From a virus (lineage: Duplodnaviria > Heunggongvirae > Uroviricota > Caudoviricetes): DNA of 64,000 nucleotides. Positions within the stretch are counted from its first letter, which is position 1; the number at the start of each line of letters is the position of its first letter. Position numbers and translations under genes: made by a program. Under the pieces are notes generated by a model that saw only the letters and a program-made list of their open reading frames with translations, did not search any database and was not told the DNA's origin. Below, in pieces: positions 6,678-46,190 of this stretch. The DNA lies in the IMG/VR virus record IMGVR_UViG_3300046656_000613, positions 30,167 to 94,166 of that record. One strand, given 5' to 3'.

Positions 6678-7054
6678 TTCAACTCCACTAAGCTTACATA
6701 CCCCTTGCTCGCCCTGATCCCATCGGCCGCCATGCCCAGCATGAGTGCGGCAACCGCTTCGGGGTCGGCGACGCTGACATCCCCGACATCCGTCGTCATG
6801 TCAAACCCAACGCCCTCCCAGCCGCTCTGGTAGGTGGGCACGACCCTGCCGGAAAAACGGACAGCACTCGTCGGTAGCTTCTGGGCGCGACATCCACCAA
6901 GATCCGTCGAAAGCCTCCAGACCTGATCCCGGTCGTTTTCATAAATGCGGCGCGGCAGGCCACGAAGCTTGGCCTCGATAATTTTCTCAACCGCCTGCGC
7001 AAACTGATGCACATCAGGCCCCAGCACCTTTGCCGCGAACTCCTCGTAGGTCAC
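6674..7054 (-). CDS. hypothetical protein (126 aa)
   Basis: ORF track. Confidence 0.4.
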   Translation of the reverse strand: MTYEEFAAKVLGPDVHQFAQAVEKIIEAKLRGLPRRIYENDRDQVWRLSTDLGGCRAQKLPTSAVRFSGRVVPTYQSGWEGVGFDMTTDVGDVSVADPEAVAALMLGMAADGIRASKGYVSLVELK

Positions 7055-7503
7055 TTCACCCTCGCCTTCTGCGCGCAGATCTCCAGCGCCAACGCATCCG
7101 TCCGCCCCTCGCCGCGCACATACCGCCCGTCAGGGTGGGTCAGCAGCCAGAACGTGTAGAATTCTCCATTCATGGTATAGTCATTGTGGATGGCGACCAT
7201 CCACCCAGCCCGGCGCAAGGCGCTCAAATGCCGGGCATGAAGCCCCTCGGTCTCAGGAAGTAATTCGTATGGCTCAACGCCGAGCGCCCCAGCCACCAAC
7301 TCCATCATCATCTGCGTTAGCCCAACCAAGCCGCGCTCAATTCGACTGATGTGCGCTTGCGTTGTGCCAATCCTGTTGGCCAGTTCAGTCGTTGAAATCC
7401 CCAGCGCCCCGCGCAGCTCCCTGACCCTATTGCCCCGCGTCGATTGGCCAAGCGATCGAGGTCGATCATGGCCATCCTCAATATCCGTGGTCTCAGCCAT
7501 CAC
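7051..7503 (-). CDS. XRE-family HTH transcriptional regulator (Cro/CI-type) with C-terminal domain
   Basis: HTH signature LRGALGISTTELANRIGTTQAHISRIERG. Confidence 0.7.
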   Translation of the reverse strand: MMAETTDIEDGHDRPRSLGQSTRGNRVRELRGALGISTTELANRIGTTQAHISRIERGLVGLTQMMMELVAGALGVEPYELLPETEGLHARHLSALRRAGWMVAIHNDYTMNGEFYTFWLLTHPDGRYVRGEGRTDALALEICAQKARVK

Positions 7504-7883
7504 TTCACCCCCAGCCGCATCTCAATCGCCGTCGCGACCCACTCTTCAAGCGTGGTCTCCGCCTGCGCAGCCTCCACCTTGACCCGAGTGGCCAGATCCT
7601 TCTCGATCCATATATTGAGCTGGCGCTTGCCGACCCGGCCCGCCTCGCGCGCCTTGCCAATCACCTCGGCCGTGCGCTTCTTCCCCTTCGTCGCCACACT
7701 CGGCGCAGGCTTGGCCGGCTTCAGATCCGGGGGAGGCGCATCAGCAACCTCAACCATCTTGCCAATGGCTCGCTGCAAATCCGTCAGCGACGCCTTCTTC
7801 TCCTCGCGCGAGGGACGCCCCTGCTCGGTATGCCGGGCCTCTCGCATCGCCCGCAGCGCTTCTGTCTTTGTCCCCTTGGTCAT
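7500..7883 (-). CDS. putative ribbon-helix-helix DNA-binding protein (candidate repressor)
   Basis: C-terminal RQLNIWIEKDLATRVKVEAAQAETTLEEWVATAIEMRL is RHH-like; start lies directly at a promoter with TCTAGA repeats. Confidence 0.45.
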   Translation of the reverse strand: MTKGTKTEALRAMREARHTEQGRPSREEKKASLTDLQRAIGKMVEVADAPPPDLKPAKPAPSVATKGKKRTAEVIGKAREAGRVGKRQLNIWIEKDLATRVKVEAAQAETTLEEWVATAIEMRLGVK

Positions 7884-7891
7884 GTCTAGAT

Positions 7892-7920
7892 GTATAGATG
7901 TCTAGATAGCTAGCTGTCAA
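7892..7920 (-). promoter_or_regulatory. sigma70-like promoter for the 7883 gene, with TCTAGA operator repeats (7884..7912) and a near-leaderless start
   Basis: Minus strand reads TTGACA, 17 nt, CTATAC; only about 8 nt from the -10 to the ATG; three CTAGATG-type repeats. Confidence 0.45.
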
Positions 7921-8012
7921 TGGCCTTTTTGGGGGAAGGGGGAAGTGAAGTAAAAATTTTTTTGATTGTGTGGGGGAGGATGGCACTATGGGCGCGCCCG
8001 TACTCCGCACGC

Positions 8013-8033
8013 GGGGGTGGGTGGGGGTGGGGG
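8013..8033 (+). other. G-quadruplex-forming motif GGGGGTGGGTGGGGGTGGGGG
   Basis: Four G3-5 tracts with 1-nt loops; further G5 tracts at 7931-7945 and an A5T8 tract at 7952-7966. Confidence 0.5.
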
Positions 8034-8453
8034 CGTGTGCACGTGGCGCGTGTGCTGCGCGCGGTGTTCTTTCGCGCGCGCATGTGCATCAGGCCATTCG
8101 CATAAGGTATCTTATGGCAAATTGGCCCCGGCTGCCAGGGGGTGCAAACCCTTGCTCACCAACGGTTTCCGGGGTGTGGCGACAGCGGACTGCCGCGACC
8201 TGTCGAGGGTGCGCATGCCACCCCGCCTCGCCACGCGCGGAGAATCGCGCACAGGCGCGTAGTAATACCCCGCTTTCGCATGCGAGGCCCGCCGACTTAG
8301 TTGAGCGACGAAGCGCATCCACAACCTGTGGCTGATACGCGCATGCGACAATCGCGTGTGAGTGTGCGCGGGTAGTCTTTCCTGGGGCTATCTGGCAATG
8401 GTCTGAGAGTTGTGCAAGGCGGCGATTTGGGCGTCAATTTTCGCGGGGATAGA

Positions 8454-8717
8454 CTACGCATGCGCGTGAGGCGCGTGAGGATGGCTACACACGGGCGCGG
8501 GCGCGGTGTCTTGGCCTAGCGACGCATCGCGGGCGAGCGCGACCAGCGCGGGATTGACTACGCACATGCGCACAAGCGTCGCGAGCGCGCCCGGAATGGG
8601 TCGCTCACCCGAGCGCCAGCGTCGCGCGCTGCGCACGGTGGTTCCTTCCCAGGCCGCGAGGTCAGCCGTTTTCAACCCAAGCGTGTGGCAGTGTGCTGTC
8701 AGTTCTGCGGCGGTCAT
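8454..8717 (-). CDS. HTH DNA-binding protein (Cro/antitoxin-like)
   Basis: LGLKTADLAAWEGTTVRSARRWRSGERPIPGALATLVRMCV is HTH-like; start placed at the sixth-codon Met. Confidence 0.5.
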   Translation of the reverse strand: MTAAELTAHCHTLGLKTADLAAWEGTTVRSARRWRSGERPIPGALATLVRMCVVNPALVALARDASLGQDTAPAPVCSHPHAPHAHA

Positions 8718-8761
8718 GCGGGAGGGCATCAAAACTCCAAGCTGAGCAACGGTTTTGTGAG

Positions 8762-8770
8762 TTATCCACA
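8762..8770 (+). promoter_or_regulatory. perfect DnaA-box consensus TTATCCACA
   Basis: Exact 9-mer, 30-45 bp upstream of the 8717 start. Confidence 0.4.
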
Positions 8771-8810
8771 GGCTATTTCAGTTTCAACCAGAGATTGGTT
8801 TACAGGACCG

Positions 8811-8838
8811 TCCGGTCCCCCTATAGTGAGGGCATAGC
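8811..8838 (-). promoter_or_regulatory. T3/T7-like single-subunit RNAP promoter core (CCCTCACTATAGGGGGA on minus strand)
   Basis: 12/12 match to CTCACTATAGGG and 16/17 to the T3/T7 core (-11 to +6); adjacent palindrome GGACCGTCCGGTCC. Confidence 0.35.
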
Positions 8839-9081
8839 AGAGACGGACCGGAAACGCTCCACTCTGCTACAAGGGCTCTGACGACGTTACCCGGCCCTAT
8901 GTCGGGACAAGTCACCCTAAAGAGATGCTGGGCACACACGACCGTGCAAGCATCCCGCAAGCGTCCGGTTAGTCCGGCCAGCGCATGCGGGCTGCACGGT
9001 GCCCAGGCTCAATATGAGCTTGGCTGTGCGTAGCATCAAGCACGTAGTGCTTCACTGGTCAGCCAGTGGAGTGTGAACTAA

Positions 9082-9306
9082 ATGGTAACATCTCAACAGC
9101 TTATCGACCTGATCAAGCCCTTGCTCGCCAAGGCGCGTGAATTGGATCGCATCGATATCCCTCATCGTTCCGACTTGCATCGCGAGGCGGCGATTGCCCT
9201 TGGGTATTCCGAAGGCATCACCAATTTCCTCGTCCTGGCGCTGCATTGGGAGAACGATATCGAGGCGTGGATTCGCCACGTCGAAGACGGCTTGATTGAG
9301 CCCTAA
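9082..9306 (+). CDS. hypothetical protein (74 aa)
   Basis: ORF track; first gene of the plus-strand block. Confidence 0.4.
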   Translation: MVTSQQLIDLIKPLLAKARELDRIDIPHRSDLHREAAIALGYSEGITNFLVLALHWENDIEAWIRHVEDGLIEP

Positions 9307-9435
9307 CACACTGCTCAGCCGCGCCATGCGGCTGACTTGTGAAGCGCTACGTGCTGGGAACCTCACGAATTCCATAGGCAGCCTAGACTCCAAATCCGCC
9401 TGATCACTCCCATGGGCAACCATTGGGGGATGACA

Positions 9436-9548
9436 TGAACCATTACACTCAGCAGCGCAAGCGCTCGGAAGCCGTGTTCGTGGCCAGCATGGTGTTCATG
9501 CTCGGCCTGACCGCGTTCATGGCCGCTTGCCTTGTCGTGCTCACATGA
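9436..9548 (+). CDS. small hydrophobic protein (37 aa)
   Basis: ATG preceded by GGGGGATGA; single predicted TM helix; below the ORF-track size cutoff. Confidence 0.25.
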
Positions 9549-9698
9549 GGGCAAATATCGCTTGGGCACTGTTCACCCTAGCTTTCCAGCTTGGCATAAT
9601 CTGGATTTTGCTTAGTCATTACAAGCACTAGCGACCGCGCAAGCGGTTGCCTTTGAGAGTGATCAGGCAGTCAAATCAACCTATGGGAGAATTGTATC

Positions 9699-10193
9699 AT
9701 GACCATTAACACCTATCGCGCTGTTTTCACGGCCTCGAACGGCCTGGAAATCATCGAAAACCGCGACTATGCCAAGCCGCTCGGCTTCGCATGGCGCGTG
9801 GAATACCACAATGCCAAAGACGAGACGCAAAAGGCCGTCAAGTTCGGCTTTTCCGCCACGCGTGAAGCCGCCGACAAGGCGACCAAACTGCCCAAACGCT
9901 GCACTGTCACGCATACGCAAGTCGTGGAAGCGCAGAACGTCGGCACCGTTGCCCTTAAGGGCAAGAAACCCGCCAAGGCCAAGGCTGTGAAGCCGTGCGC
10001 CGTCGGCGATATCGTCAGTTTCGACCTGGGCACGCATCTGCCCGGCATCGCCGCGACTGTCGCGGGTAAGGTGGCCAAGCTCGGCCGCAAATATGCATAC
10101 GTGGAAGTCGCGGGCGCCCTTGATCATATCAAGGTCGCGTTCGCGAACATTCGTCCCCTCGATTCCGCCCCTGCTCAAGCGCTCGCGGCGTGA
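9699..10193 (+). CDS. hypothetical protein (164 aa)
   Basis: Strong SD GGGAGAATTGTATC before the ATG. Confidence 0.5.
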   Translation: MTINTYRAVFTASNGLEIIENRDYAKPLGFAWRVEYHNAKDETQKAVKFGFSATREAADKATKLPKRCTVTHTQVVEAQNVGTVALKGKKPAKAKAVKPCAVGDIVSFDLGTHLPGIAATVAGKVAKLGRKYAYVEVAGALDHIKVAFANIRPLDSAPAQALAA

Positions 10194-19149: not shown

Positions 19150-19241
19150 TGGCGGATAGGGCAGGATTCGAACCTGCGGGCCACGCTTTCGCGGACCAAC
19201 GATTTAGCAAACCGCCGCAATCGGCCTCTCTGCCACCTATC
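19150..19241 (-). tRNA. tRNA-Ser (GCT), type II
   Basis: Acceptor GGATAGG/CCTATCC, anticodon loop TTGCTAA, long variable arm, T-loop TTCGAAT, CCA encoded. Confidence 0.7.
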
Positions 19242-19311
19242 CAGGCTTCCCGATGGAATCCTGTCCTTAGACTCGCATCCCAACCTTATCGCACATATTC
19301 CACCCTGGCAA

Positions 19312-19406
19312 TGGCGGAGGAGGTAGGATTTGAACCCACGGGGCGCACTCTCGTGTCCCGACGGTTTTCAAGACCGCTGCCTTAAGCCAGACTCAGCCAC
19401 TCCTCC
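19312..19406 (-). tRNA. tRNA-Ser (TGA), type II
   Basis: Acceptor GGAGGAG with complementary CTCCTCC; a one-base anchor conflict forces a G-U at the 7:66 pair, possibly hiding an off-by-one in the gene or in the ORF track; anticodon loop CTTGAAA; long variable arm. Confidence 0.7.
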
Positions 19407-19630
19407 AACTCAAACAGGGCGCTGGCGACGGGGCGTTACCCCGTTGGCTCGATTGACTTGTGCACGTCGTGCAAGCGCGCCAGCATTAACTCGATACGGG
19501 TCTAGAGGACATGGGGATTGTACCTCCAGTTGCGATTCTTCGCGTTTGCGCCTCTTCGCCGGTTCCCTAAACCGAACCCGCTCTGGCCGATCACTTCCAT
19601 CGACCGGGGCCGGTCTTTCAGGCCCGTGTT

Positions 19631-19706
19631 TGGTAGCGGGAGTCGGATTTGAACCGACGACCTCCAGTTTATGAGACTGGCGAGCACTCCGCTGCTCTAT
19701 CCCGCA
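19631..19706 (-). tRNA. tRNA-Met (CAT), U1:U72 mismatch (initiator-like or elongator unresolved)
   Basis: Anticodon loop CTCATAA; perfect anticodon stem CCAGT/ACTGG; T-loop TTCAAAT. Confidence 0.7.
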
Positions 19707-19712
19707 ATAATT

Positions 19713-19789
19713 TGGTGCCACCGGCACGGTTTTGAACCTGCGACCTGCCGCTTACAAGGCGGCTGCTCTACCATCTGAGCTACGGCGGC
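19713..19789 (-). tRNA. tRNA-Thr (TGT)
   Basis: Acceptor GCCGCCG; anticodon stem GCCGC/GCGGC with loop CTTGTAA; T-stem has a 1-nt bulge. Confidence 0.7.
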
Positions 19790-19795
19790 GAAACT

Positions 19796-19869
19796 GGTTC
19801 TCCCTCAAGGATTCGAACCTCAACCTTTGCGTCCAGAGCGCAACGTCACTACCGTTAGACGAAGGGAGA
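19796..19869 (-). tRNA. tRNA-Gln (CTG)
   Basis: Anticodon loop CTCTGGA; D-arm similar to enterobacterial tRNA-Gln; T-loop TTCGAAT. Confidence 0.65.
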
Positions 19870-19872
19870 CCT

Positions 19873-19947
19873 TGGTCCTGAAGGCCAGAATTGAACTGGC
19901 GTTTCGCGGTCCACAGCCGCGCGTCCTAGCCACTGAACGACATCAGG
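19873..19947 (-). tRNA. tRNA-His (GTG) with no encoded G-1 and A73 discriminator
   Basis: Anticodon stem CGCGG/CCGCG with loop CTGTGGA; base before position 1 is C, not G. Confidence 0.65.
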
Positions 19948-19949
19948 GT

Positions 19950-20024
19950 TGGTCTGCGCGGCCTGGGTCGAACAGGCGGTCTCCTGATCCCAAATCAGGC
20001 GGATTACCTCTTTCCTACGCGCAG
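19950..20024 (-). tRNA. tRNA-Pro (TGG)
   Basis: C1:G72 acceptor CTGCGCG/CGCGCAG; anticodon stem CCTGA/TCAGG with loop TTTGGGA. Confidence 0.75.
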
Positions 20025-23921: not shown

Positions 23922-24586
23922 ACCAGAAAATCTCCTTCATTGACCACGCGAAACGTACCGCAGTCCCCGTCTTTCTCGGGGCGGTAATCACCAATGCCAA
24001 CACCGTGGCCGGCTGCATCAAACATCGTCATCATCTGCTCGATGCTGATCACTTGCGGATTCAGGCTGACGTTCAATTCCACGCCCCAGGTAGAATACTC
24101 CGGCCGATAGCGCATCTCAGGCGGCCGGCCGGGGCCAGACAGCCGCGCGACGTCCTCACGCATAACAGGCGCCTTGGCAATCAGGGGCACCAACGCAGTA
24201 CGCACGAATGAGCCCTCAAGAACACCGGGCCTATCCATGGAAATGCCGCTGACGCGAAACGCCTGCCGCGCTGCGACCTTGGTGATATCGGAGAGCGATG
24301 TGCAAGCTGTCACTGCGGCGGCCTTGAAGCCGATTGCCGGGAACCCATCACCAGCATGGGGCTCCGGGAGCGGATAGCGCGACGCCTCCATTTCGGCGTA
24401 AGGATCGCGCGCGTCCCGGCCACCCTTGGCGATCTTGCGCTGCTTATCGAGCATCTCTTTCCGGGCTTTCTCGGGAAAGGCGTGGACGATGAGCGGGGCG
24501 GTGCCGATCAGAAACACCTTAACTTCTTGCACTTTAAAATCGGGCAGGGTAATGGTTCCGCCGACGGCGGGTTTTGCCTTCACCAT
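23897..24586 (-). CDS. hypothetical protein (229 aa, starts MVKAKP)
   Basis: Internal Met; the N-terminal LLLLLL segment of the longer ORF is rejected. Confidence 0.4.
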   Translation of the reverse strand: MVKAKPAVGGTITLPDFKVQEVKVFLIGTAPLIVHAFPEKARKEMLDKQRKIAKGGRDARDPYAEMEASRYPLPEPHAGDGFPAIGFKAAAVTACTSLSDITKVAARQAFRVSGISMDRPGVLEGSFVRTALVPLIAKAPVMREDVARLSGPGRPPEMRYRPEYSTWGVELNVSLNPQVISIEQMMTMFDAAGHGVGIGDYRPEKDGDCGTFRVVNEGDFLVWRQEHHI

Positions 24587-24682
24587 ATCTGTTCTCCACA
24601 GCAGATTTCTATCGTCAGGGGGCGTTGGCGCGCCCTCTGATAATTTCGTTGTAGAGTGACATAGCAATAATAGCAAGAGCAA

Positions 24683-25474
24683 TTACGCGAAGCGGCGCCG
24701 GGCCTTAAAAGCGCTCCCGATGGTCTTGAGCGATTCCTTGCGCGACAGGCCGATCGATGCCGCGGCCTGGGCGAGCATCTCGGCGGTGGCCTCATCGGCG
24801 TAGCCGCCTTCCGCAGCCCGACAGGCCGCCCAATACAGACAGGAATTGCGCTGGCTCTCGGCGGCGTTGGTGACAAACTTCGCCAGCCCTGACAAGGCAG
24901 CGTTGGCGTCGCGAATGCCTTCCTTGCGGACGAAGACGGCATTCTCCTTGGGCTTGAGCGCCATGCTCGCCCAGATCGGCATGCGCGCGATATCCGCTCC
25001 CAAGGGCGCGAGATGCCAGCGATAGAAGCGCCCGCCATCGAGCACGCTCGGCGGCGCCACGACATAGCCCCCGGTGGTGCGGATGTCGATCCCCTTCCCC
25101 AGCAGCGACTTGGAATTCAGCACCTGCGGCACGTAGCCGTAATAAAGGTGCCAGCCCCCCGACGGCGTGCGCGCGCTGACCGTCGGCTTGAAGATTCGGC
25201 CGAGCGCCTTCATCTGCCGCACCGTGTCATTCGATCCGGCCTTGGGATCTAAATCAACGACAGTCAGCCCCGACACCGCGCCGCAGGCGATGCCAACATT
25301 GGCGTGCGGGAAGCGGCGCGCCCATTCCCGAATCTGATCCAGGCTCTTGGAGGCATCGAGCACGCCCTGGCCGCCCGCCTTCTTCGAGATCGCCGGCAAC
25401 TTCGAGCCCGGCGACAGCGGGAACACGGCCCAATCCAACTCCAGCAACCGCTGCGCTGCATCCAGAAATTTCAT
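24683..25474 (-). CDS. bifunctional DNA primase/polymerase (PrimPol-like)
   Basis: Resemblance to the archaeo-eukaryotic primase PrimPol N-domain (AVFPLSPGSKLP, ANVGIACGAVSGLTVVDLDPK, GGWHLYY) of phage/plasmid replication proteins. Confidence 0.55.
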   Translation of the reverse strand: MKFLDAAQRLLELDWAVFPLSPGSKLPAISKKAGGQGVLDASKSLDQIREWARRFPHANVGIACGAVSGLTVVDLDPKAGSNDTVRQMKALGRIFKPTVSARTPSGGWHLYYGYVPQVLNSKSLLGKGIDIRTTGGYVVAPPSVLDGGRFYRWHLAPLGADIARMPIWASMALKPKENAVFVRKEGIRDANAALSGLAKFVTNAAESQRNSCLYWAACRAAEGGYADEATAEMLAQAAASIGLSRKESLKTIGSAFKARRRFA

Positions 25475-25477
25475 GGC

Positions 25478-26578
25478 TCAATCCTTCCAGATGTCCTTGA
25501 CCTGCTCGGTCGCGTAAGCGTCATATTCCATATGGAAATTTGCGGTGTCGAACCGCGAAGCCACCGTGCCGCGGATGCCCATTTTCTCCTCCACCTTGGA
25601 CTTATCCAGGCGCCAGATCGTATGGCCGCGGGTGGCCTCCCATTTCTTGCTGCGCACAATGCACAGGCCGCGATCGGCCTTGTTGCCGAAATTGCCCGAG
25701 CCGAAACTGTGCGCGATCTTGAACGGCTGAATGCTGCCGTCGCCGTTGATCATTTTTGCCGGGACGTGGGTGCCAATCGCGCTGATGATCCGGTTCGTAT
25801 CCACGGACCGTCGGAACATTCGCATGGCATCGCGAATGTATTCGGTCTCGATCTGCCTGACGTCCTTTTTGTGATCCATCTCGTTCCATGGATCAAGGAC
25901 GTGAAAAAGCGCGTTATACTTGCGCGTATAGAAATCGACCAGCTCGATATACCAGTCAACTTGGCGATCCTTATCTGGAGCACGACAGACGTAATGGATT
26001 CTGTCAAGCATATGATCGAGATTCGCCTTGTAGAGGTGCTCGTAATACTTGATGAAACGCTCCAGATTGCGCCGCATGTCGGCCGCCTCGTCTTCCCAGG
26101 CGCAGATCAGCGCCGAGCAATCGCCCAGCTCAGCACCGTTGACCCTGACGAACTGAAACGCCAATTGCTGCAAAACGGTGGACTTGCCCGAGGCGTAGGG
26201 GCCAGCCACAACCATCAGCTCGCGCAGACGCCACCGCCATCCCAAGTTCTTATCCAGGAACCCGATTCCCGAGGGGTAGGTCTGGAAAGTGTCGGCACTC
26301 GGCGCCCGGCGCAGCGACTGTGCGTCCCTGAAAAACAGGTGCCTGACCCGATTGCCATCATCGGATGAGCAGATCGACACCCGGCTGGCTGGCAGCCCCT
26401 GCCCGACCAGCTTCCAGGCTTCGGCCTCGACGCCTTCGAGGACAGTGCCGACAAGAACCAGATCACGGTCTCCGAGGATGTCCGGCCCCAGCTCATTGAG
26501 CGAGACATGCTGTTGCTCGGCCCTGTCGAGGGCTTCGTGAGCGGCGAGGTTGATTGTGACAAAGAGACGATCGGTCAC
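25478..26578 (-). CDS. P-loop NTPase, replicative helicase-like
   Basis: Walker A AGPYASGKST, Walker B-like VLDPWNE; lies between the PrimPol-like gene and the replication-initiator gene. Confidence 0.6.
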   Translation of the reverse strand: MTDRLFVTINLAAHEALDRAEQQHVSLNELGPDILGDRDLVLVGTVLEGVEAEAWKLVGQGLPASRVSICSSDDGNRVRHLFFRDAQSLRRAPSADTFQTYPSGIGFLDKNLGWRWRLRELMVVAGPYASGKSTVLQQLAFQFVRVNGAELGDCSALICAWEDEAADMRRNLERFIKYYEHLYKANLDHMLDRIHYVCRAPDKDRQVDWYIELVDFYTRKYNALFHVLDPWNEMDHKKDVRQIETEYIRDAMRMFRRSVDTNRIISAIGTHVPAKMINGDGSIQPFKIAHSFGSGNFGNKADRGLCIVRSKKWEATRGHTIWRLDKSKVEEKMGIRGTVASRFDTANFHMEYDAYATEQVKDIWKD

Positions 26579-27579
26579 AGCAGCGCTCCGACATACGAAC
26601 CATTGGCAGAATAGTTGGACTGACGCTTGCCTCCGCGCTCATAGCCGCCCTCCATCAGCCGAACGAAGCTTTTCGACTGAAGCAGGAAATCGAAATCAGC
26701 TTTCCAGCCCCGTTCGTTGTCGCCAAGCAGGAAGCCGGACTTCTCGACCTTGGCCATCACCTCCAAGAATTTCTGAAGTGAACCGGCATCCCTGATCCGG
26801 GCGACAATGGCCGCGCCACGGGTGGTCGTGAGCTTCTCCATCTTCGCCAATCCGCAGCGTCCGGCCAGTTCGTTCCAGGCCCTAGCGACGATGCGCGCCG
26901 CCTCGATCGCATCGATCATTTTTGGCGCCTCGACGGGAGGGGCGTCAGACGGCCCGGATGACGAGTCCTCGTTAGAGGACTTCTTCTCTAAGGGAATGGG
27001 AATGGGAATGGGAAGCATTGCCGTCGCATCCTCTGCGACCTTGATTTTATTGACTTTTTTCGCTGTCTTTCGCGGAAGTTTGCTCGAAGTTTGGGGCAAA
27101 CTTGGCTCAAACTTGGCGGAAACTTCCTCGGAACTGCGGTTTGCCTGCCAGCGCGCATGGGCATTTGCGGCAGCCTGTTTGATACGCTCGGCCCGCTTAA
27201 TTCGCTCCCGCTCGAAGCGGGCATTTGTCAGACAGCCGGCGCGAATAATCACCTTCCCGGCCGACACCAGGACTTCCTTAATCCGCTTCCAGACGCGCAG
27301 CGACAGGCCCATGGAAACCGACATAAAGCGGTCATCATCCGGCAGGGGCTTTCCACGCTGATAGAGGCGATTGAGGAACCGGCAATAGGCGCCCTCCAGC
27401 TCCAGGCTGAGACCCATGGTCCCGCCGAGCCAGTCGCCGATGTGCCAGTCAATATGATGGAATTGGACGATCTCGTCGGGACTCGAAACAGACGAGTCAA
27501 CAGGTTCCCCAGACTCTGTGGGAAACACGTGTGAAACAGGGCTTGCATCCATTAGGGAGCGCATGTATATATACCCCAT
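26575..27579 (-). CDS. phage replication initiation/organizer protein
   Basis: N-terminal YCRFLNRLYQRG motif as in DUF1376-type replication proteins; contains a PIPIPIP run from a (GGAATG)3 tandem repeat. Confidence 0.45.
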   Translation of the reverse strand: MGYIYMRSLMDASPVSHVFPTESGEPVDSSVSSPDEIVQFHHIDWHIGDWLGGTMGLSLELEGAYCRFLNRLYQRGKPLPDDDRFMSVSMGLSLRVWKRIKEVLVSAGKVIIRAGCLTNARFERERIKRAERIKQAAANAHARWQANRSSEEVSAKFEPSLPQTSSKLPRKTAKKVNKIKVAEDATAMLPIPIPIPLEKKSSNEDSSSGPSDAPPVEAPKMIDAIEAARIVARAWNELAGRCGLAKMEKLTTTRGAAIVARIRDAGSLQKFLEVMAKVEKSGFLLGDNERGWKADFDFLLQSKSFVRLMEGGYERGGKRQSNYSANGSYVGALL

Positions 27580-27894
27580 GTCGTCGCGCCCCCCGCTTCG
27601 ACATGCGAAAGGCGGCCCCGGAAAACGCTTAGCGTCCCAGGTGGTTGTCAGTAAACCGGATGGAAGCCACAGGCGTGGCAGCAGGAGCTTCTTCCCGGAT
27701 CGCCCCCTTCCGATATTGCGACGGCCCCTTCGGGGGTCGTTTGCATTTCGGGGAGGTTTCCCCTTGTCTCACAGACTCGGGATGGGAGCAAGCCGGGAAT
27801 CTCTTGAAATTGGCCGCGGATCGGCATACATTCTCCAGCACGATATGCGGTTGAACTTGCCGTCATCGCTTAAAATGAGGTGGCGGTTTTTCTT

Positions 27895-27935
27895 GTTGAC
27901 AGGGGTTGCATGATGCAATAGAAACTGTCTCACAG
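27895..27935 (+). promoter_or_regulatory. sigma70-like promoter TTGACA, 17 nt, TAGAAA, overlapped by palindrome TTGCATGATGCAA
   Basis: Located 20-55 bp upstream of the 27953 ATG; the perfect 6-bp-arm inverted repeat is a likely operator. Confidence 0.45.
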
Positions 27936-27952
27936 AAGGCGAGACACACATC

Positions 27953-28684
27953 ATGAAACTGAATCAGATTATCGCGATCGAGAAGGGCGTGAAGGCGCGC
28001 GCCCAGGAAACCCTCGATGTTCTCTACAAAGTCGTGCAGAAGCCGGCCCTGTTCGAGGGCATGACGCGCGTCTACCGCCCCAAAAACGATGAGGGCGATA
28101 AGCTGCCGGGCGAGCGGAAGGTGGTGCAGTATCGCGTTGACGATGCGCTCAGCACGATCCGGCTGGCGGAGACCGAGGCGATCAATGTGACGGCCCAGAA
28201 AGAGCAGGCCAACACTGTGGCAGCCGCGCCGGTACTTGTCGATGGGAAACTGGTCATCGGCAAGGTTCCCGCGACGACGCTGCTGTTCCTGGAGCGCCGG
28301 CTGACGAATCTGCGCACGTTTCTGGAAGCGCTGCCCGAGCTGGACATCGGCGAGGAATGGGAGCCCGACTATGATTCCGGGCTGAGCCGCACGGCGCCGG
28401 TGGAGACCCAGCGCACCGTGAAGCTCCAGCGCCCGCTCGTGCTGTTCCCGGCGACCGACAAGCATCCGGCGCAGACCCAGGTTGTTACCGAGGACGTCCT
28501 GGCCGGCTTCTGGAACACCACGCGGCAGTCCGGCGCCATCGCCAAGACCCGCAAGCTGGAGCTGATCGATCGGGTGGACAAGCTGCTGATCGGCGTCAAG
28601 GAGGCCCGCGAGGAGGCCAACAGCGTGGATGCTGGCGAGCGCGCCAATATCGGCGGCGCCATTTTTGAGTTTCTCCTGAAATAG
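27953..28684 (+). CDS. hypothetical protein (243 aa)
   Basis: ORF track; immediately followed by the tRNA-like cluster. Confidence 0.45.
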   Translation: MKLNQIIAIEKGVKARAQETLDVLYKVVQKPALFEGMTRVYRPKNDEGDKLPGERKVVQYRVDDALSTIRLAETEAINVTAQKEQANTVAAAPVLVDGKLVIGKVPATTLLFLERRLTNLRTFLEALPELDIGEEWEPDYDSGLSRTAPVETQRTVKLQRPLVLFPATDKHPAQTQVVTEDVLAGFWNTTRQSGAIAKTRKLELIDRVDKLLIGVKEAREEANSVDAGERANIGGAIFEFLLK

Positions 28685-28689
28685 GAGTC

Positions 28690-29080
28690 CGAAAGTCTTA
28701 GACTGGTCTTTAGGCTAAAGCAGTGACGTGCTGGTTCGAGTCCAGCCCCCGGCACCAACCTATGCCGGGGTGGCGAAATGGTAGACGCAGCGGTTCCCAG
28801 GATCGTGTCACTTCAGATTTAGACTATTCCAACCAGACTGAGCAGATGCCGTGCCGGACCTATCGACCGGCTCCACAATGAAACGATAGACAGGAGTTCG
28901 AATCTCCTCCGGCTCGCCAAATCCTTATGAGCCGGTAGTCTAGTTGGTATGACGATCGTTATAAGCTTAAGTGGAGTCTAAACTGCCGAGGTCTGGAGTG
29001 AGCGGTTTAGGTAGCTCAATGGGTAGAGCAACACCCTTGTAAGGTGTCGGTAGCAGGTTCAAATCCTGCCCTATATCAAA
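28690..29080 (+). other. cluster of chimeric or permuted tRNA-like segments (three units) ending in a tRNA-Thr(TGT)-like gene with no CCA (29007..29078)
   Basis: Perfect T-arms GCTGGTTCGAGTCCAGC and AGGAGTTCGAATCTCCT; D-arms TGGCGAAATGGTAGACGC and TAGTCTAGTTGGTATGAC; each 3' acceptor strand pairs with the 5' acceptor of the next unit rather than its own. Confidence 0.5.
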
Positions 29081-29136
29081 CGGGCCGTCGGGGCAGGCTA
29101 GTCCCCGGCGGCCTTCATTGCGACCGGATACAGCAG

Positions 29137-29334
29137 ATGAAGCAGGAAGACTTTCGACGAGCCGGCGAGACCCTATACGGCGAAAAATGGCGAGAACCCC
29201 TCTCCAAGGCCCTCGACATCAGCCCCTCGACAGCATGGCGCTATTGGCGCGGCAAGCTACCCATTCCCACCAAAGTTGAACTGGCCGTCCAGAAGCTTCT
29301 CGACAATGCAGAACGCGAAAAAGCCCGGCACTGA
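29137..29334 (+). CDS. small putative DNA-binding protein (65 aa)
   Basis: Internal ATG of ORF 29044..29334; basic, Trp-containing helix-rich sequence. Confidence 0.3.
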   Translation: MKQEDFRRAGETLYGEKWREPLSKALDISPSTAWRYWRGKLPIPTKVELAVQKLLDNAEREKARH

Positions 29335-33670: not shown

Positions 33671-33891
33671 TTAACCTCCACAGGCGGATGATAGCCAAAG
33701 TCCCATTCCTGGATGAGAAAGTCCAGCGCGCGCCATTCTTCCTCGGTCGGCTCATGTCCGGTCGGATGGTTATAATACCATGTCTCCGACAGGTGCCAGC
33801 CCTTCTCTTTGAGGAAGGCCATCGCCTTGTCTTCGCCGATGCCATCCTGCCCGCCCCACTCGGCGCGCAGTTCATCGCTGGCGCTGGGCAT
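33667..33891 (-). CDS. hypothetical protein (74 aa)
   Basis: ORF track. Confidence 0.35.
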   Translation of the reverse strand: MPSASDELRAEWGGQDGIGEDKAMAFLKEKGWHLSETWYYNHPTGHEPTEEEWRALDFLIQEWDFGYHPPVEVK

Positions 33892-34421
33892 CAGTCGGGC
33901 CGATCCGCTTCCATAACGGTGACGTCGCCGATAGTGACATCGGGGGCGTTACCGGCCGCCTCGTATTCCGCGGCTTCCTGGGCGGTCATCTCCTGATTGA
34001 ACGTGTCCTCGGGAAGATTGATGCGCTCGGGCTTGAAGATGGCGCGATTGATCGCCATGAACGCCTGTTCGATGTGGGTGCGGCCAATGGCCAGCCAGCG
34101 CTGATCAACAAGCTCATCGCCCTTGAAATCATCAAGGCGCCGGAGGACTCGCTCCTCAAGCTGCTTGTTGATGTTGACGACGGCGATTCGACTGTCGGGC
34201 TGCGCCGTGTAGCCGGCGACGGGAAGGGGGCTGTGGGTGGCCGGAGGATCGAGCGCATCGGCCGCCGCGCCGATCTGCTTTGCCAGGGTCAGCGAGATGA
34301 GTTCGCTGCCCAGGCTAGGGAACACCAGCTCGACCACAGGCCCCTGTGCGTTTTCGTATTCCTCCGAGCCTCTGTTGTGAGTGACGATCGTGAAATCGTC
34401 GGCCGTGTAAACTCTCTTCAT
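33891..34421 (-). CDS. hypothetical protein (176 aa)
   Basis: ORF track. Confidence 0.45.
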   Translation of the reverse strand: MKRVYTADDFTIVTHNRGSEEYENAQGPVVELVFPSLGSELISLTLAKQIGAAADALDPPATHSPLPVAGYTAQPDSRIAVVNINKQLEERVLRRLDDFKGDELVDQRWLAIGRTHIEQAFMAINRAIFKPERINLPEDTFNQEMTAQEAAEYEAAGNAPDVTIGDVTVMEADRPD

Positions 34422-41535: not shown

Positions 41536-41825
41536 GGGCGGAGTGGCAGCGCCGGCTGCTGGCCATCACCTATGCCGCGACCTTTGCCGGCATTTCCCGG
41601 CGCTGGGAAAAAGCCTATGAGGCGATAGGCTTAGATCCGGTGTGGATAACCCGGATTATTGCTATTGCGCTGCTGATCATCTGTTTCAAACTGGCAGACA
41701 AGATCCCCGATGATTCGTGGCCGAGATGGGAGCTACGTATGCCATTGGCTTACGGTCTCTATATCATACTGCTAGCGATCTGGCTCTCGGTGCTTCTCGG
41801 CCTTTTTATGGGAGGAGCCCATTGA
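41532..41825 (+). CDS. membrane protein (97 aa)
   Basis: Two or three hydrophobic helices. Confidence 0.4.
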   Translation: MRAEWQRRLLAITYAATFAGISRRWEKAYEAIGLDPVWITRIIAIALLIICFKLADKIPDDSWPRWELRMPLAYGLYIILLAIWLSVLLGLFMGGAH

Positions 41826-45954: not shown

Positions 45955-46029
45955 GCTGGGGTAGCTCAGTGGTAGAGCGTCGCGTTGAAGGCGCGAGCGT
46001 CGGTGGTTCAACCCCATCCCCCAGCACCA
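45955..46029 (+). tRNA. tRNA-Phe (GAA)
   Basis: Perfect acceptor GCTGGGG/CCCCAGC; anticodon stem TCGCG/CGCGA with loop TTGAAGG; CCA encoded. Confidence 0.85.
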
Positions 46030-46031
46030 AT

Positions 46032-46106
46032 TGGCATGAAGCACAGCGGTTGTGCATCTGGCTGTTAACCAGGGGGCCGCAGGTTCGAATCCTGCCTTGC
46101 CAGCCA
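46032..46106 (+). tRNA. tRNA-Asn (GTT)
   Basis: Anticodon stem TCTGG/CCAGG with loop CTGTTAA; T-loop TTCGAAT; one U:U in the acceptor. Confidence 0.7.
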
Positions 46107-46111
46107 TATTC

Positions 46112-46185: not shown

Positions 46186-46190
46186 AATTC

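What the first reader, a model, noticed from the sequence alone, without database searches (positions are those of the whole stretch)
7884..9060. Composite regulatory and origin-like region with a T3/T7-type promoter core and a DnaA box
About 570 bp of non-coding DNA separate two DNA-binding-protein genes. It contains a near-leaderless sigma70 promoter with TCTAGA/CTAGATG repeats at the start of the RHH gene. It also has a textbook G4 motif GGGGGTGGGTGGGGGTGGGGG plus further G5 tracts, an A5T8 tract, and at least four CGCATGCG palindromes. There are two about 25-bp direct repeats, GGGAT(A/T)GACTACGCA..ATGCGC, at 8447 and 8551, and a 7-bp IR CCATAAG..CTTATGG. Just beyond, a perfect DnaA box TTATCCACA sits at 8762. 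At 8811-8838 on the minus strand, CCCTCACTATAGGGGGA matches the T3/T7 promoter core at 16/17 positions and points leftward into this region. Together this looks like the genetic switch and possibly a replication origin, perhaps with a phage-type RNAP promoter relic.
Basis: seen in the sequence. Interest (0 to 1): 0.6.

Follow-up and report, generated by a model that had tools for sequence, protein, structure and literature searches.

The report
Phage early-gene control region
This stretch is the control region for the early genes of an uncultured soil phage: ordinary host-type promoters with repressor-binding sites, a conserved DnaA-binding site and a previously undescribed folded leader RNA, with no T7-type promoter and no demonstrated replication origin.

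Summary
Comparison with about 9 diverged relatives from metagenomes changes what they mean.

- **T3/T7 core (8816-8832, minus strand):** it is the -10 box of a conserved sigma70 promoter on the plus strand, P_R (TTTACA-17-TATAGT, 8799-8827). Relatives keep both hexamers and the 17-bp spacing but degrade the T7 match. No second copy and no single-subunit RNAP gene occur in the 64 kb.
- **P_R spacer:** every lineage has its own perfect inverted repeat here. The repeat tracks the variant of the adjacent Aca2/HigA-like HTH gene, so it is probably that protein's operator.
- **DnaA box (8762):** invariant in all relatives, 28-30 bp upstream of the P_R -35. It is a single box with no cluster, iterons or unwinding element nearby.
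- **P_R leader:** about 250 nt and structured (8834-9081). 15 of 45 base pairs show compensatory changes, and no Rfam family matches.
- **Leftward promoter:** conserved and leaderless, carrying lineage-specific 8-bp-period boxes that look like a ribbon-helix-helix (RHH) operator.
- **G-run block (7950-8130):** invariant, but shows no RNA covariation. Its function is unresolved.
- **CGCATGCG cluster:** non-random but lineage-specific.
- **The 25-bp direct repeats:** they lie on coding sequence.

The parts
7500..7883 (-). First gene of the leftward operon: a 127-aa protein with a C-terminal ribbon-helix-helix (RHH) domain.
   Evidence: ORF. Pfam RHH_10 match is weak. A profile of 8 homologues hits CopG-family RHH (9kkd, E=3.5e-4), SIRV1 56B and ParG in the PDB. 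Relatives carry precomputed PF20605 Antitox_RHH hits.
7891..7920 (-). P_left: a sigma70-type promoter, TTGACA (7920-7915), 18-bp spacer, TATACA (7896-7891). The ATG at 7883 lies 7 nt after the -10, so the mRNA is leaderless.
   Evidence: Sequence. GTCAA and the distance to the start codon are conserved in 13 relatives (alignment A6). The scanner did not flag it, and no 5' end has been mapped.
7886..7913 (.). Four (C/A)TAG boxes at an exact 8-bp period (7886, 7894, 7902, 7910), overlapping the P_left spacer and -10. Probable operator of the RHH protein.
   Evidence: Repeat family D1. Every lineage has its own 8-bp-period repeats or palindromes at the same place. The ParG RHH operator has the same geometry (PMC3130281). 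Binding is inferred.
7950..8130 (.). Conserved non-coding block 2. It holds an A5T7 tract (7952-7963), a -35-like hexamer (about 7960-7965), CACTAT (7984-7989), CCGTACTCC (7998-8006), the G-run GGGGGTGGGTGGGGG(TGGGGG) (8013-8033), a variable GC hairpin, and the palindrome CATAAG-GTAT-CTTATG (8101-8116). Function unresolved.
   Evidence: Invariant columns across 13 sequences. No compensatory pairs on either strand. No conserved reading frame, and the ATG is lost in L017 and L023. Strongest G/C asymmetry in the window.
8135..8453 (.). Lineage-specific spacer carrying two CGCATGCG palindromes (8277, 8340) and one GCATGC site (8213).
   Evidence: Poorly conserved even in the nearest distinct relative, L008, where these two palindromes are absent. 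Cluster statistics.
8454..8729 (-). Small HTH gene (91 aa), Aca2/HigA-like. Proposed repressor of P_R.
   Evidence: Homologues are present in all lineages. The profile hits Aca2 (7ezy, E=1.6e-4; 8w35; 7vjo) and HigA-2. Pfam Aca2_YdiL is below threshold.
8762..8770 (+). Perfect DnaA box, TTATCCACA, within the invariant 12-mer GTTATCCACAGG (8761-8772); the wider GAGTTATCCACAGG is AAGTTATCCACAGG in L021.
   Evidence: It is present in all 20 loci that carry P_R (9 distinct promoter variants), 28-30 bp upstream of the -35, while the flanking bases vary.
8759..8787 (-). Candidate promoter of the HTH gene: -35 TTGAAA (8787-8782), 17 bp, weak -10 TAACTC (8764-8759) overlapped by the DnaA box.
   Evidence: Sequence. 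The invariant CAACC in alignment A3 is the reverse complement of the GGTTG of this -35. The assignment is inferred and the -10 is poor.
8799..8827 (+). P_R: a sigma70 promoter, TTTACA (8799-8804), 17-bp spacer, TATAGT (8822-8827). The predicted start is near A8834. Its -10 and discriminator, read on the minus strand, are the 'T3/T7 core'.
   Evidence: Best sigma70 match (10/12) in the first 20 kb. The hexamers and the 17-bp spacing are conserved in all relatives while the spacer sequence varies.
8805..8818 (.). Perfect palindrome GGACCG-TC-CGGTCC inside the P_R spacer. Proposed operator of the HTH protein.
   Evidence: Every lineage has a different perfect inverted repeat here, with arms of 4-7 bp. 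The chance of arms of 5 bp or more in a random 17-mer is 0.023. Half-sites track the HTH variant.
8834..9049 (+). Structured leader RNA core: P1 (8835-8869), P2 (8872-8918, almost invariant), and P3, a multi-branched domain closed by GAGAUGC/GCAUC (8924-9036).
   Evidence: MFE z-score of -6.07. Covariance model R1 finds one copy per genome; the window copy scores 157 bits. 95.3% of cells are paired against 24-38% in slid controls, and 15 pairs have changes on both sides against 0-3. No Rfam match. The frame is not conserved, and L008 reads ATG TGA.
9050..9071 (+). Hairpin CUUCACUGG-UCAG-CCAGUGGAG, which pairs the Shine-Dalgarno GGAG (9068-9071) of the first rightward ORF.
   Evidence: 100% pairable in 10 sequences, but only one pair has a double change, and 176/500 shuffles do as well. 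Conservation is shown; covariation is weak.
9082..9306 (+). First ORF of the rightward operon (74 aa, no family match).
   Evidence: The ORF is deleted in L008, which still keeps the leader.

Best explanation
The interval is the central early-transcription control region of an uncultured high-GC phage. It is read by the host sigma70 RNA polymerase, not by a phage-type polymerase.

**Leftward.** P_left makes a leaderless mRNA that starts at the ATG of a ribbon-helix-helix (RHH) protein. That protein probably represses its own promoter by coating four (C/A)TAG boxes spaced 8 bp apart over the spacer and -10.

**Rightward.** P_R (TTTACA-17-TATAGT) is the strongest consensus promoter in the region. 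Three inputs are proposed to control it:
1. Host DnaA, bound to an invariant box centred near -68. The box also overlaps the weak promoter of the divergent HTH gene.
2. The small Aca2/HigA-like HTH protein, binding as a dimer to a palindrome in the P_R spacer.
3. The roughly 250-nt structured leader that P_R transcribes, ending in a hairpin that can hide the ribosome-binding site of the first ORF.

**Shown:** the promoter anatomy and how it is conserved; the lineage-specific palindromes and how they track the HTH variant; the invariant DnaA box; the covariation-supported RNA fold.

**Inferred:** who binds what, the sign of the DnaA effect, and what the leader senses or recruits.

**Unassigned:** the invariant G-run block 2, which lies between the two promoter sets.
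For: **P_R is a sigma70 promoter.**
- It scores 10/12 and is the top hit in 20 kb.
- In 20 loci and 9 variants the -35 (TTTACA, TTTACT or TTGACA), the -10 (TAT..T) and the 17-bp spacing are kept while the spacer sequence changes.

**The P_R spacer holds an operator.**
- A perfect inverted repeat is present in every lineage, with arms of 6, 6, 4, 5, 6, 4, 5, 7 and 6 bp. Random 17-mers reach arms of 5 bp or more with P = 0.023.
- The window and L008 share the half-site GGACC, and their HTH proteins are 71% identical. L004 and L017 share GGGAAC at 62% identity. All other pairs are at most 56% identical and have different half-sites.
- The HTH profile matches Aca2 and HigA-2 structures. Aca2 is known to bind an inverted repeat overlapping its promoter and hairpins in the 5' UTR (PMC13551039).

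**DnaA box.** The 12-mer GTTATCCACAGG is invariant in all lineages (the two bases before it are GA, or AA in L021), 28-30 bp from the -35, even in L021 where the intervening sequence differs.

**Leader RNA.**
- MFE z-score of -6.07.
- 45 pairs, 95.3% of cells paired, 15 pairs with double changes, and 0 of 500 shuffles reaching the observed value. Slid controls give 0-3 pairs with double changes.
- Many G-U pairs favour the plus-strand RNA.
- It is non-coding.

**P_left.**
- The -35 and the distance to the ATG are conserved in 13 sequences, with lineage-specific 8-bp-period repeats between them.
- The RHH fold is supported by a profile search.
- The ParG operator is built from 4-bp boxes with 4-bp spacers (PMC3130281).
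Against: - No experimental 5' ends or binding data exist.
- All relatives belong to one phage family from soil and rhizosphere metagenomes, representing about 6 independent lineages. Invariance therefore partly reflects shared ancestry, and the covariation counts rest on few events.
- The alignment used for pair counting was fitted to the model.
- The HTH match to Aca2 is weak: Pfam is below threshold, and the profile E-value against PDB chains is 1.6e-4.
- Unlike canonical aca genes, this HTH gene is transcribed divergently rather than sitting downstream in the operon.
- The Shine-Dalgarno hairpin has almost no covariation.
- The HTH gene's own promoter has a poor -10.
- L014-L016 keep P_R, the DnaA box and the Shine-Dalgarno hairpin but carry a different leader. 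The P1-P3 core is therefore dispensable in some lineages.
- Block 2, the most strongly conserved DNA in the interval, is not explained by this model.
Confidence: 0.7

Rival explanations
1. The minus-strand CCCTCACTATAGGGGGA at 8816-8832 is a functional or relic T3/T7-type promoter. A phage single-subunit RNA polymerase uses it and it fires leftward.
For: The 17-mer is present and is unique in the window. Shuffles expect 0.07 matches with up to 3 mismatches. It matches T3 at 15/17 and T7 at 14/17.
Against: - The six bases upstream of the core (-17 to -12), which take in the AT-rich recognition segment, match at 0-1 of 6.
- Relatives mutate the specificity and initiation bases but keep TAT..T and a -35 at 17 bp on the other strand.
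- There are no further copies.
- Only two ORFs reach 800 aa. One is a polyvalent protein and the other has a weak VgrG3-like hit. Neither has an RNAP domain in Pfam or PHROGs.
- A leftward start here would run straight into the oppositely placed -35.
Confidence: 0.03
2. The region is, or contains, the phage replication origin. The DnaA box, A/T tract, G-rich tract and repeats would act as initiator sites. Initiation might be primed by an R-loop, because the G-rich non-template strand lies downstream of a rightward promoter in block 2.
For: - The DnaA box is invariant.
- Block 2 is invariant at the DNA level with no RNA covariation.
- It has the most extreme G/C asymmetry in the window, and an A/T tract next to it.
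- Gene orientation diverges here.
- No iterons were found in the replication-gene module either, so the origin remains unplaced.
Against: - There is a single DnaA box and no cluster.
- The A/T tract is only 12 bp.
- The proposed iterons are coding sequence.
- The CGCATGCG sites are not conserved.
- The Prim-Pol, KaiC-like ATPase and DUF1376 replication genes lie at 24.6-27.6 kb.
- Cumulative GC skew shows no minimum here beyond what the strand switch of genes produces.
- The DnaA box keeps a fixed distance to P_R, which fits promoter control.
Confidence: 0.12
3. Block 2 is a third promoter firing rightward: an A-tract UP element, a -35-like TTKASA, an 18-bp variable spacer and an invariant CACTAT. 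Its G-rich transcript runs antisense into the HTH gene and tunes HTH expression by convergent transcription.
For: The conservation pattern looks like a promoter. -35-like hexamers (TTTTGA, TTTACA, TTTTCA, TTGACG, TTTAGA) sit at a fixed 18 bp from the invariant CACTAT. The spacer varies in L010, L012 and L023, and an A-tract lies directly upstream. The 8353-8371 hairpin, with G-U pairs on the plus strand, is an island of conservation in L008.
Against: - CACTAT is a weak -10, and L017 and L023 have CACTAG, which loses the key T.
- The scanner did not flag it.
- No terminator is conserved.
- The invariance downstream of the putative start (CCGTACTCC, the G-run, the palindrome) shows no RNA covariation.
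- Two alternative readings remain open: a C-rich Rho-loading site in the leftward HTH transcript, or a binding platform for a conserved factor.
Confidence: 0.3
4. The P_R leader is a ligand-sensing riboswitch or an RNAP-modifying (put-like) antitermination RNA. In this reading it is not a target of the HTH protein.
For: - It is a large multi-helix fold. Its P2 element and junctions are almost invariant in sequence, as expected for a ligand, protein or RNAP contact surface.
- It lies immediately after an early promoter, as HK022 put does (PMC9378689, listed).
- It is retained in L008 although the first ORF is deleted.
- It is followed by a hairpin that sequesters the Shine-Dalgarno sequence.
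Against: - No Rfam family matches at E up to 10.
- No alternative-pairing expression platform is conserved.
- The only strong terminator in the operon is at 17.09 kb, so the need for antitermination is not evident.
- L014-L016 replace the core with another sequence.
Confidence: 0.25

Closest known systems
Aca2-controlled anti-CRISPR operons (phage ZF40 acrIF8-aca2; PMC13551039, PMC6765145)
   Same: - A small HTH protein with best structural-sequence matches to Aca2.
- An inverted repeat that overlaps a strong early promoter.
- A structured 5' UTR with hairpins near the ribosome-binding site.
- The controlled operon consists of many small early genes.
- RHH-type regulators have also been described in aca positions.
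   Different: - The HTH gene is divergent from the operon it would control, not its last gene.
- The leader is about 250 nt with three large helices, not two short hairpins.
- No acr gene has been identified.
- The similarity to Aca2 is below Pfam's threshold.
- A DnaA box is part of the promoter region.
ParG OF operator of plasmid TP228 (PMC3130281)
   Same: The regulator is a ribbon-helix-helix protein. The operator is an array of 4-bp boxes separated by 4-bp spacers (8-bp period) over its own promoter. Here four (C/A)TAG boxes lie at 7886-7913.
   Different: - The box sequence differs (CTAG, not ACTC).
- There are four boxes, not eight.
- There is no ParA-type partner gene and no centromere role.
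- The mRNA is leaderless.
- Binding has not been tested.
Lambdoid immunity regions (divergent early promoters with repressor operators), and DnaA stimulation of lambda pR (Szalewska-Palasz et al. 1998, cited in PMC3985674)
   Same: - Back-to-back early promoters.
- Operators that overlap the promoters and differ between heteroimmune relatives.
- A leaderless transcript for a regulator gene, as with lambda cI from PRM (my own knowledge).
- Host DnaA acting at an early rightward promoter.
   Different: - No CI/Cro pair sharing tripartite operators.
- No integrase was seen and no prophage copies were found.
- The DnaA box lies upstream of the promoter at about -68.
- A long structured leader takes the place of nut sites.
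T7-group (T3/T7/SP6) single-subunit RNAP promoters
   Same: A 17-nt stretch matches the -11 to +6 core at 14-15 of 17 positions.
   Different: - The six bases upstream of the core (-17 to -12) do not match.
- It is not repeated in the genome.
- It is not conserved in relatives.
- No cognate polymerase gene lies in 64 kb.
- The same bases form a conserved sigma70 -10 on the other strand.
HK022 put RNA (PMC9378689)
   Same: A cis-acting structured RNA transcribed immediately downstream of a phage early promoter.
   Different: put is two stem-loops of about 70 nt (my own knowledge). No sequence or structure similarity was detected here, and the effect on termination is untested.

Membership tests
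T7-group phage RNAP promoter | A 23-bp consensus that includes the AT-rich -17 to -13 recognition segment. | tested here: not met
   The core matches T3 at 15/17 and T7 at 14/17. The six bases upstream of the core (-17 to -12) read GCTATG, against TAATAC (T7) or AATTAA (T3), which is 0-1 of 6 (sequence; the consensus sequences are from my own knowledge).
T7-group phage RNAP promoter | Several near-identical copies across the genome. | tested here: not met
   One match with up to 3 mismatches in 64 kb. CACTATRGGG with up to 1 mismatch gives 3 matches against 3.05 expected. The rest of the genome was not available.
T7-group phage RNAP promoter | A cognate single-subunit RNAP gene. | tested here: not met
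   Only two ORFs in the window reach 800 aa. Neither has an RNAP domain in Pfam or PHROGs. This covers the window only.
T7-group phage RNAP promoter | Conservation of the specificity (-11 to -8) and initiation (+1 GGG) bases in relatives. | tested here: not met
   Relatives read CAATATAGGGG, CAATATATCGG, AAACATAGCGG and AAAGATAGCCT.
Sigma70 promoter (P_R) | -35 and -10 hexamers at 16-18 bp. In relatives the hexamers are conserved and the spacer is free to vary. | tested here: met
   TTTACA-17-TATAGT scores 10/12. The spacing is 17 bp in all 20 loci, the hexamers are kept and there are 9 different spacers.
Sigma70 promoter (P_R) | A mapped transcription start. | not testable with these tools
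   Needs 5'-RACE or dRNA-seq.
Replication origin (DnaA/iteron type) | A cluster of DnaA boxes, or conserved iterons for a phage initiator. | tested here: not met
   There is one box here and the only other perfect box is at 41641. The claimed repeats are coding sequence. The CGCATGCG sites are not conserved in L008.
Replication origin (DnaA/iteron type) | An AT-rich DNA-unwinding element. | tested here: not met
   The only A/T run is A5T7, 12 bp. Regional GC content is 61%.
Replication origin (DnaA/iteron type) | A strand-compositional switch, or proximity to an initiator gene. | tested here: inconclusive
   The skew changes sign at about 8 kb, but so does gene orientation. The replication genes lie at 24.6-27.6 kb.
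DnaA box | The 9-mer TTATCCACA, kept under selection. | tested here: met
   A perfect 9-mer, within a 12-mer (GTTATCCACAGG) that is invariant in all lineages at a fixed distance from P_R. DnaA binding itself cannot be tested here.
RHH repressor with tandem-box operator (ParG/CopG type) | An RHH fold in the adjacent gene product. | tested here: met
   The profile hits CopG-family RHH at 3.5e-4, SIRV1 56B at 5e-4, and ParG. Pfam on the single sequence is below threshold.
RHH repressor with tandem-box operator (ParG/CopG type) | Short boxes in regular tandem or inverted arrays over the protein's own promoter. | tested here: met
   Four (C/A)TAG boxes at an 8-bp period. Equivalent lineage-specific arrays occur in 13 relatives.
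Aca2-type HTH regulator | Sequence membership in Aca2/YdiL. | tested here: inconclusive
   Pfam Aca2_YdiL gives E=0.03 and 14.8 bits against a cut-off of 23.8. The profile against PDB gives Aca2 7ezy at 1.6e-4 but HigA-2 at 3e-3.
Aca2-type HTH regulator | An inverted-repeat operator overlapping the regulated promoter. | tested here: met
   A perfect palindrome lies in the P_R spacer in every lineage and co-varies with the HTH variant. Binding is inferred.
Aca2-type HTH regulator | The regulator gene lies in the same operon, downstream of an anti-defence gene. | tested here: not met
   The HTH gene is divergent from P_R. No acr gene was identified.
Known structured RNA family (Rfam) | A match to a curated covariance model. 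| tested here: not met
   No hit at E up to 10 in 7700-9400. None at gathering score. In relatives the only hit is a chance miRNA match at E=0.35.
Structured cis-regulatory RNA (generic) | A secondary structure supported by compensatory changes. | tested here: met
   15 of 45 pairs have double changes. 95.3% of cells are paired against 24-38% in slid controls, and 0 of 500 shuffles reach the observed value. MFE z-score of -6.07.
G-quadruplex element | Four G3+ tracts with short loops, conserved in relatives. | tested here: inconclusive
   The motif is present. The core GGGGGTGGGTGGGGG is invariant, but L012 and L013 replace the fourth run with C-runs. Whether a quadruplex forms cannot be tested here.

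The most novel reading that the evidence does not exclude
The roughly 215-nt P1-P3 RNA transcribed from P_R may be a new class of phage cis-regulatory RNA. It could be a riboswitch, an element that modifies RNAP, or the RNA target of an Aca2-like HTH. It would gate a whole early operon, possibly a counter-defence operon, together with host DnaA. In this reading the invariant G-run and palindrome block upstream is a separate new DNA element, for example a G-quadruplex or R-loop device or a Rho insulator, coupled to the same switch.
Probability: 0.25. Interest if true: 0.7.

Novelty: new variant of a known kind. Interest (0 to 1): 0.45.

Why it matters
- **A misreading corrected.** A short, striking match to a famous consensus (T7) can simply be a host-type -10 box read backwards. 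Comparison with relatives settles the question.
- **An entry point to an unstudied phage family.** These high-GC soil phages carry about 29 tRNA genes. The analysis gives concrete regulatory parts with predicted protein-DNA pairs: the HTH protein with its palindrome, and the RHH protein with its CTAG boxes. The specificities differ between lineages, which is useful for studying heteroimmunity or for building orthogonal repressor-operator sets.
- **A host-state input.** The invariant DnaA box at a fixed distance from an early promoter suggests that the phage reads the host's replication or growth state.
- **A new RNA.** The leader has covariation support and matches no Rfam family. Together with an Aca2-like regulator, it may extend the recently described dual DNA/RNA control of phage counter-defence operons.

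Tried and rejected
- **Close relatives in reference collections.** Megablast of 7000-10000 against 50,697 phage records found nothing. A search of 1-25000 against plasmids found only tRNA-sized matches.
- **IMG/VR and GTDB scans.** Searches of IMG/VR with the RHH and HTH proteins, and with three DNA patterns, found nothing. Two exact patterns against GTDB genomes also found nothing, so no host and no prophage were identified.
- **L001-L003.** These contigs are identical to the window apart from 1 SNP, so they carry no comparative information.
- **Block 2 as an RNA.** No covariation on either strand.
- **Block 2 as a small protein gene starting at the ATG in CACTATGGG.** Rejected. The frame across the palindrome differs between lineages (AIRIMCVM, HSRNVCYG, PFA*), and L017 and L023 lack the ATG.
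- **Block 2 as a sigma54 promoter (TGGCAC).** Rejected by inspection. L012 and L013 have CGCAC, and the -12 GC is not in register.
- **A leader ORF starting at AUG 8899.** Rejected. Indels shift the frame, and L008 reads ATG TGA.
- **The 25-bp direct repeats as iterons.** Rejected because they are coding sequence.
- **A pseudoknot between the P2 loop and the 5' end.** Not supported by covariation (inspection).
- **A shared motif between block 1 and block 2 (CACTAT(A)GGG) as two copies of a phage-polymerase promoter.** Rejected, because the two do not co-vary across lineages.
- **Iterons in the replication-gene module.** None found.
- **Further P_R-like promoters (TAT..T-KAGGGCA) in the window.** None above chance.


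Full report
**Setting.** The window has about 61% GC and looks like phage DNA.
- It carries 29 tRNA genes in three clusters.
- It encodes SSB, a Prim-Pol/KaiC-like ATPase/DUF1376 replication module, a lysozyme, an antirepressor, an Acb2/Tad1-domain protein and a 3299-aa polyvalent protein.
- A DUF932 gene has its best phage matches in GAP32/CBB/XbC2-type jumbo phages, at 36-41% amino-acid identity.
- Nothing in the phage or plasmid collections is close at the DNA level.
- Genes to the left of about 8.7 kb run leftward, and genes from 9082 run rightward. The finding therefore sits at a point of divergent transcription.

**Observation check.** The listed strings are present, with small corrections.
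- The tract is A5T7, not A5T8.
- The inverted repeat is 6 bp, not 7 bp.
- The two 'direct repeats' are a 15-nt, 14/15 match.
- 7884-8453 is non-coding. It has no third-position GC periodicity and no conserved frame.
- CGCATGCG is not enriched in the window as a whole: 5 copies against 6.8 expected. Four of the five lie in 8277-8989. A local dinucleotide shuffle expects 0.11, and 0 of 5000 shuffles reach 4. Correcting for the choice of any palindromic 8-mer gives P = 0.002.
- The core GCATGC is under-represented genome-wide, at 26 against 55 expected, yet 5 of the 26 copies lie here.
- G5 runs are strongly clustered. The 100-nt windows starting at 7881-7941 have the most extreme G/C strand asymmetry of the whole window.

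**Relatives.** Exact look-up of the RHH protein returned three contigs identical to the window, which carry no comparative information. Homologues of the RHH protein and of the conserved 164-aa protein (9699-10193) led to more contigs. These came from JGI, Logan and NCBI metagenomes. One DNA-pattern scan added three more. Together they give about 9 distinct versions of the region in about 6 lineages. Flanking proteins are 30-71% identical. Two non-coding blocks stand out as more conserved than the proteins: block 1 (8753-9081) and block 2 (about 7940-8130).

**The T7-like motif is a sigma70 -10 read backwards.**
- The scanner finds TTTACA-17-TATAGT on the plus strand at 8799-8827. It scores 10/12 and is the best hit in the first 20 kb.
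- In all 20 loci the -35 (TTTACA, TTTACT or TTGACA) and the -10 (TATAGT, TATATT, TATGTT or TATCTT) are kept at exactly 17 bp. The spacer takes 9 different sequences.
- The changes that relatives tolerate destroy the T7 specificity and +1 GGG positions.
- The six bases upstream of the core (-17 to -12), which take in the AT-rich segment, do not match.
- No second copy exists in 64 kb.
- The only two ORFs of 800 aa or more have no RNAP domain.
- I regard the T7 reading as refuted for the window. The unseen rest of the genome is the only loophole.

**An operator inside the P_R spacer.** Every lineage carries a perfect inverted repeat in the 17-bp spacer:

| Lineage | Inverted repeat |
|---|---|
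| window | GGACCG-TC-CGGTCC |
| L008 | GGACC-AGCC-GGTCC |
| L004 | GGGAAC-TGCT-GTTCCC |
| L017 | GGGAACG-TC-CGTTCCC |
| L006 group | GGAC-N6-GTCC |
| L012 | CGGACC-GTGT-GGTCCG |
| L014-16 | GGCCC-GCTT-GGGCC |
| L021 | TGAAGC-AC-GCTTCA |

- A random 17-mer of this composition has arms of 5 bp or more with P = 0.023, and arms of 4 bp or more with P = 0.13.
- This DNA is not transcribed from P_R. A palindrome that is preserved while its sequence changes therefore points to a dimeric DNA-binding protein whose specificity changes with it.
- The half-site tracks the neighbouring small HTH protein. The window and L008 share a half-site and are 71% identical. L004 and L017 share a half-site and are 62% identical. 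All other pairs are at most 56% identical and have different half-sites.
- A profile of this protein matches Aca2 and HigA-2 structures, although Pfam membership is below threshold.
- Aca2 represses its promoter through an inverted repeat that overlaps it, and represses translation through 5'-UTR hairpins (PMC13551039). The locus therefore works like an Aca-type circuit. It fails one membership feature, because the regulator gene is divergent rather than downstream in the operon.

**The DnaA box.**
- The 12-mer GTTATCCACAGG is invariant in every lineage, and the two bases before it are GA, or AA in L021. This holds even in L021, where the sequence between the box and the promoter is unrelated. 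The box always lies 28-30 bp upstream of the -35, with its centre at about -68 to -70.
- It also overlaps the weak -10 (TAACTC) of the candidate HTH-gene promoter. The -35 of that promoter (TTGAAA) explains the invariant CAACC.
- The box is single. The simplest reading is promoter control by host DnaA. It would activate P_R, repress the HTH gene, or do both.
- Precedent exists in DnaA-stimulated transcription at lambda pR (references in PMC3985674).
- The origin reading lacks a box cluster, conserved iterons, an unwinding element and a nearby initiator gene. I keep it at about 0.12 because the true origin is unplaced and block 2 is unexplained.

**The leader RNA.**
- From about 8834 to the ATG at 9082 the sequence is 76-85% identical between lineages but cannot be coding. 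Indels shift the frame, and L008 reads ATG TGA.
- It folds with an MFE of -121.8 kcal/mol and a z-score of -6.07.
- RNAalifold and a covariance model give three elements: P1, a long and almost invariant P2, and a multi-branched P3 closed by GAGAUGC/GCAUC.
- The model finds exactly one copy per genome.
- Pair counting gives 95.3% of cells paired, against 24-38% when partners are slid. It gives 15 pairs with changes on both sides, against 0-3. None of 500 shuffles reaches the observed values.
- G-U pairs favour the plus strand.
- Caveats: there are few independent lineages, and the alignment was fitted to the model.
- No Rfam family matches, even at E = 10.
- A terminal hairpin, CUUCACUGG-UCAG-CCAGUGGAG, pairs the Shine-Dalgarno GGAG. 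It can form in all 10 sequences, but its covariation is not significant.
- The core is kept in L008, where the first ORF is deleted. It is replaced by other sequence in L014-L016.
- What the leader does is inferred. My ranking is a translational or stability control element, possibly bound by the HTH protein; then a riboswitch; then a put-like antiterminator. The only strong terminator in the operon is at 17.09 kb.

**The leftward promoter.**
- On the minus strand it reads TTGACA-18-TATACA-7-ATG.
- In 13 relatives the -35 and its distance to the start codon are conserved. L004 is an exception, with its start codon about 8 nt further downstream. The interval between holds lineage-specific 8-bp-period repeats or palindromes: CTAGATGT x3, GCTAGCAG x3, TTAGCTTG x2.5, CATGATTT x2.5 and AGACGACTAG/CTAGTCGTCT.
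- In the window, four (C/A)TAG boxes lie at 7886, 7894, 7902 and 7910.
- The first gene product has an RHH domain. The ParG RHH operator is built from 4-bp boxes with 4-bp spacers, with one dimer per box (PMC3130281).
- Autorepression by the RHH protein is the natural inference.

**Block 2.** The invariant strings are the A-tract, GCACTA.GGG, CCGTACTCC, GGGGGTGGGTGGGGG and TTCGC.TAA.GT...TTATGG.
- They show no compensatory changes on either strand and no conserved frame. The constraint therefore acts on the primary sequence, most likely at the DNA level.
- A canonical four-tract G4 is present in most lineages but not in L012 and L013.
- The candidate readings are:
  - a rightward promoter with an UP element and a G-rich initial transcript running antisense to the HTH gene;
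  - a binding platform for a conserved factor, for example at the CATAA-N6-TTATG palindrome;
  - a C-rich Rho-loading site that insulates the RHH operon from the HTH transcript.
- None of these can be decided from sequence.

**The CGCATGCG cluster and the direct repeats.**
- The palindromes at 8277 and 8340 lie in a spacer that is poorly conserved even in L008, and L008 lacks them.
- The copy at 8457 covers the HTH stop codon. The copy at 8982 lies in a variable part of the leader.
- The cluster is statistically real but specific to this lineage. This lineage is also the only one carrying the XRE-type gene at 7051-7503, which makes that protein a candidate binder. This is inference only.
- The two direct repeats encode the C-terminus and an internal segment of the HTH protein, so they are not iterons.

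**Verdict.** The region is a real, conserved phage early-control region. The T7 reading is wrong. The origin reading is unsupported. The 'regulatory' reading is right and can now be stated in detail. The new items are the covariation-supported leader RNA with no Rfam match, the invariant DnaA box at fixed register to an early promoter, the operator and regulator that co-vary, and the unexplained invariant G-run block.

Noticed in passing
window 9409-9429 and ORF 9435-9548: A hairpin, CCCATGG-GCAA-CCATTGGGGG, lies just upstream of a 37-aa hydrophobic ORF (MNHYTQQRKRSEAVFVASMVFMLGLTAFMAACLVVLT). It partly covers the ORF's ribosome-binding site. The same element is recognisable in L008, L016 and L021, and it is unique in the window.
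   Followed up: partly
window 19150-20024 (-), 29004-29078 (+), 45955-49679 (+): There are 29 tRNA genes in three clusters, covering most amino acids. This is unusual for a contig of this size and suggests a large phage genome.
   Followed up: no
window 49769-59668 (-): A 3299-aa polyvalent protein carries LPD38, ROS/MucR and a weak ART-PolyVal domain. It is followed by an 886-aa ORF with a weak VgrG3-like match.
   Followed up: partly
window 33891-34421 (-): A protein with an Acb2/Tad1 hairpin domain. This is a family of sponges for cyclic-nucleotide immune signals, which indicates counter-defence content in this phage.
   Followed up: no
whole window: GCATGC (the SphI site) is under-represented, at 26 against 55 expected or about -4 sd. 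Five of the 26 copies are concentrated in the control region.
   Followed up: partly
L014 and L015, 8025-9200 (-): Two relatives carry an IS605 OrfB/TnpB (Cas12f-like) gene inserted in the rightward early operon.
   Followed up: no
L008 4743-4880; L016 3735-4007: The first rightward ORF is modular. L008 has lost the 74-aa ORF but keeps the leader, the Shine-Dalgarno hairpin and the start codon. L016 has an extra 90-aa gene between the promoter-proximal leader and the Shine-Dalgarno hairpin.
   Followed up: partly
window 41641-41649 (-): This is the only other perfect DnaA box (TTATCCACA) in the window. I did not examine its context.
   Followed up: no
window 24683-27579 (-): The replication module comprises Prim-Pol, a KaiC/AAA_25-like ATPase and a DUF1376 protein. 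No iteron-like direct repeats were found in 24000-29200.
   Followed up: partly
window 8353-8371: The hairpin CGCGTGTGAGTGTGCGCG is followed by GTCTTTC. It is an island of conservation between the window and L008 within an otherwise diverged spacer. It could be a plus-strand terminator, which would matter if block 2 holds a rightward promoter.
   Followed up: no
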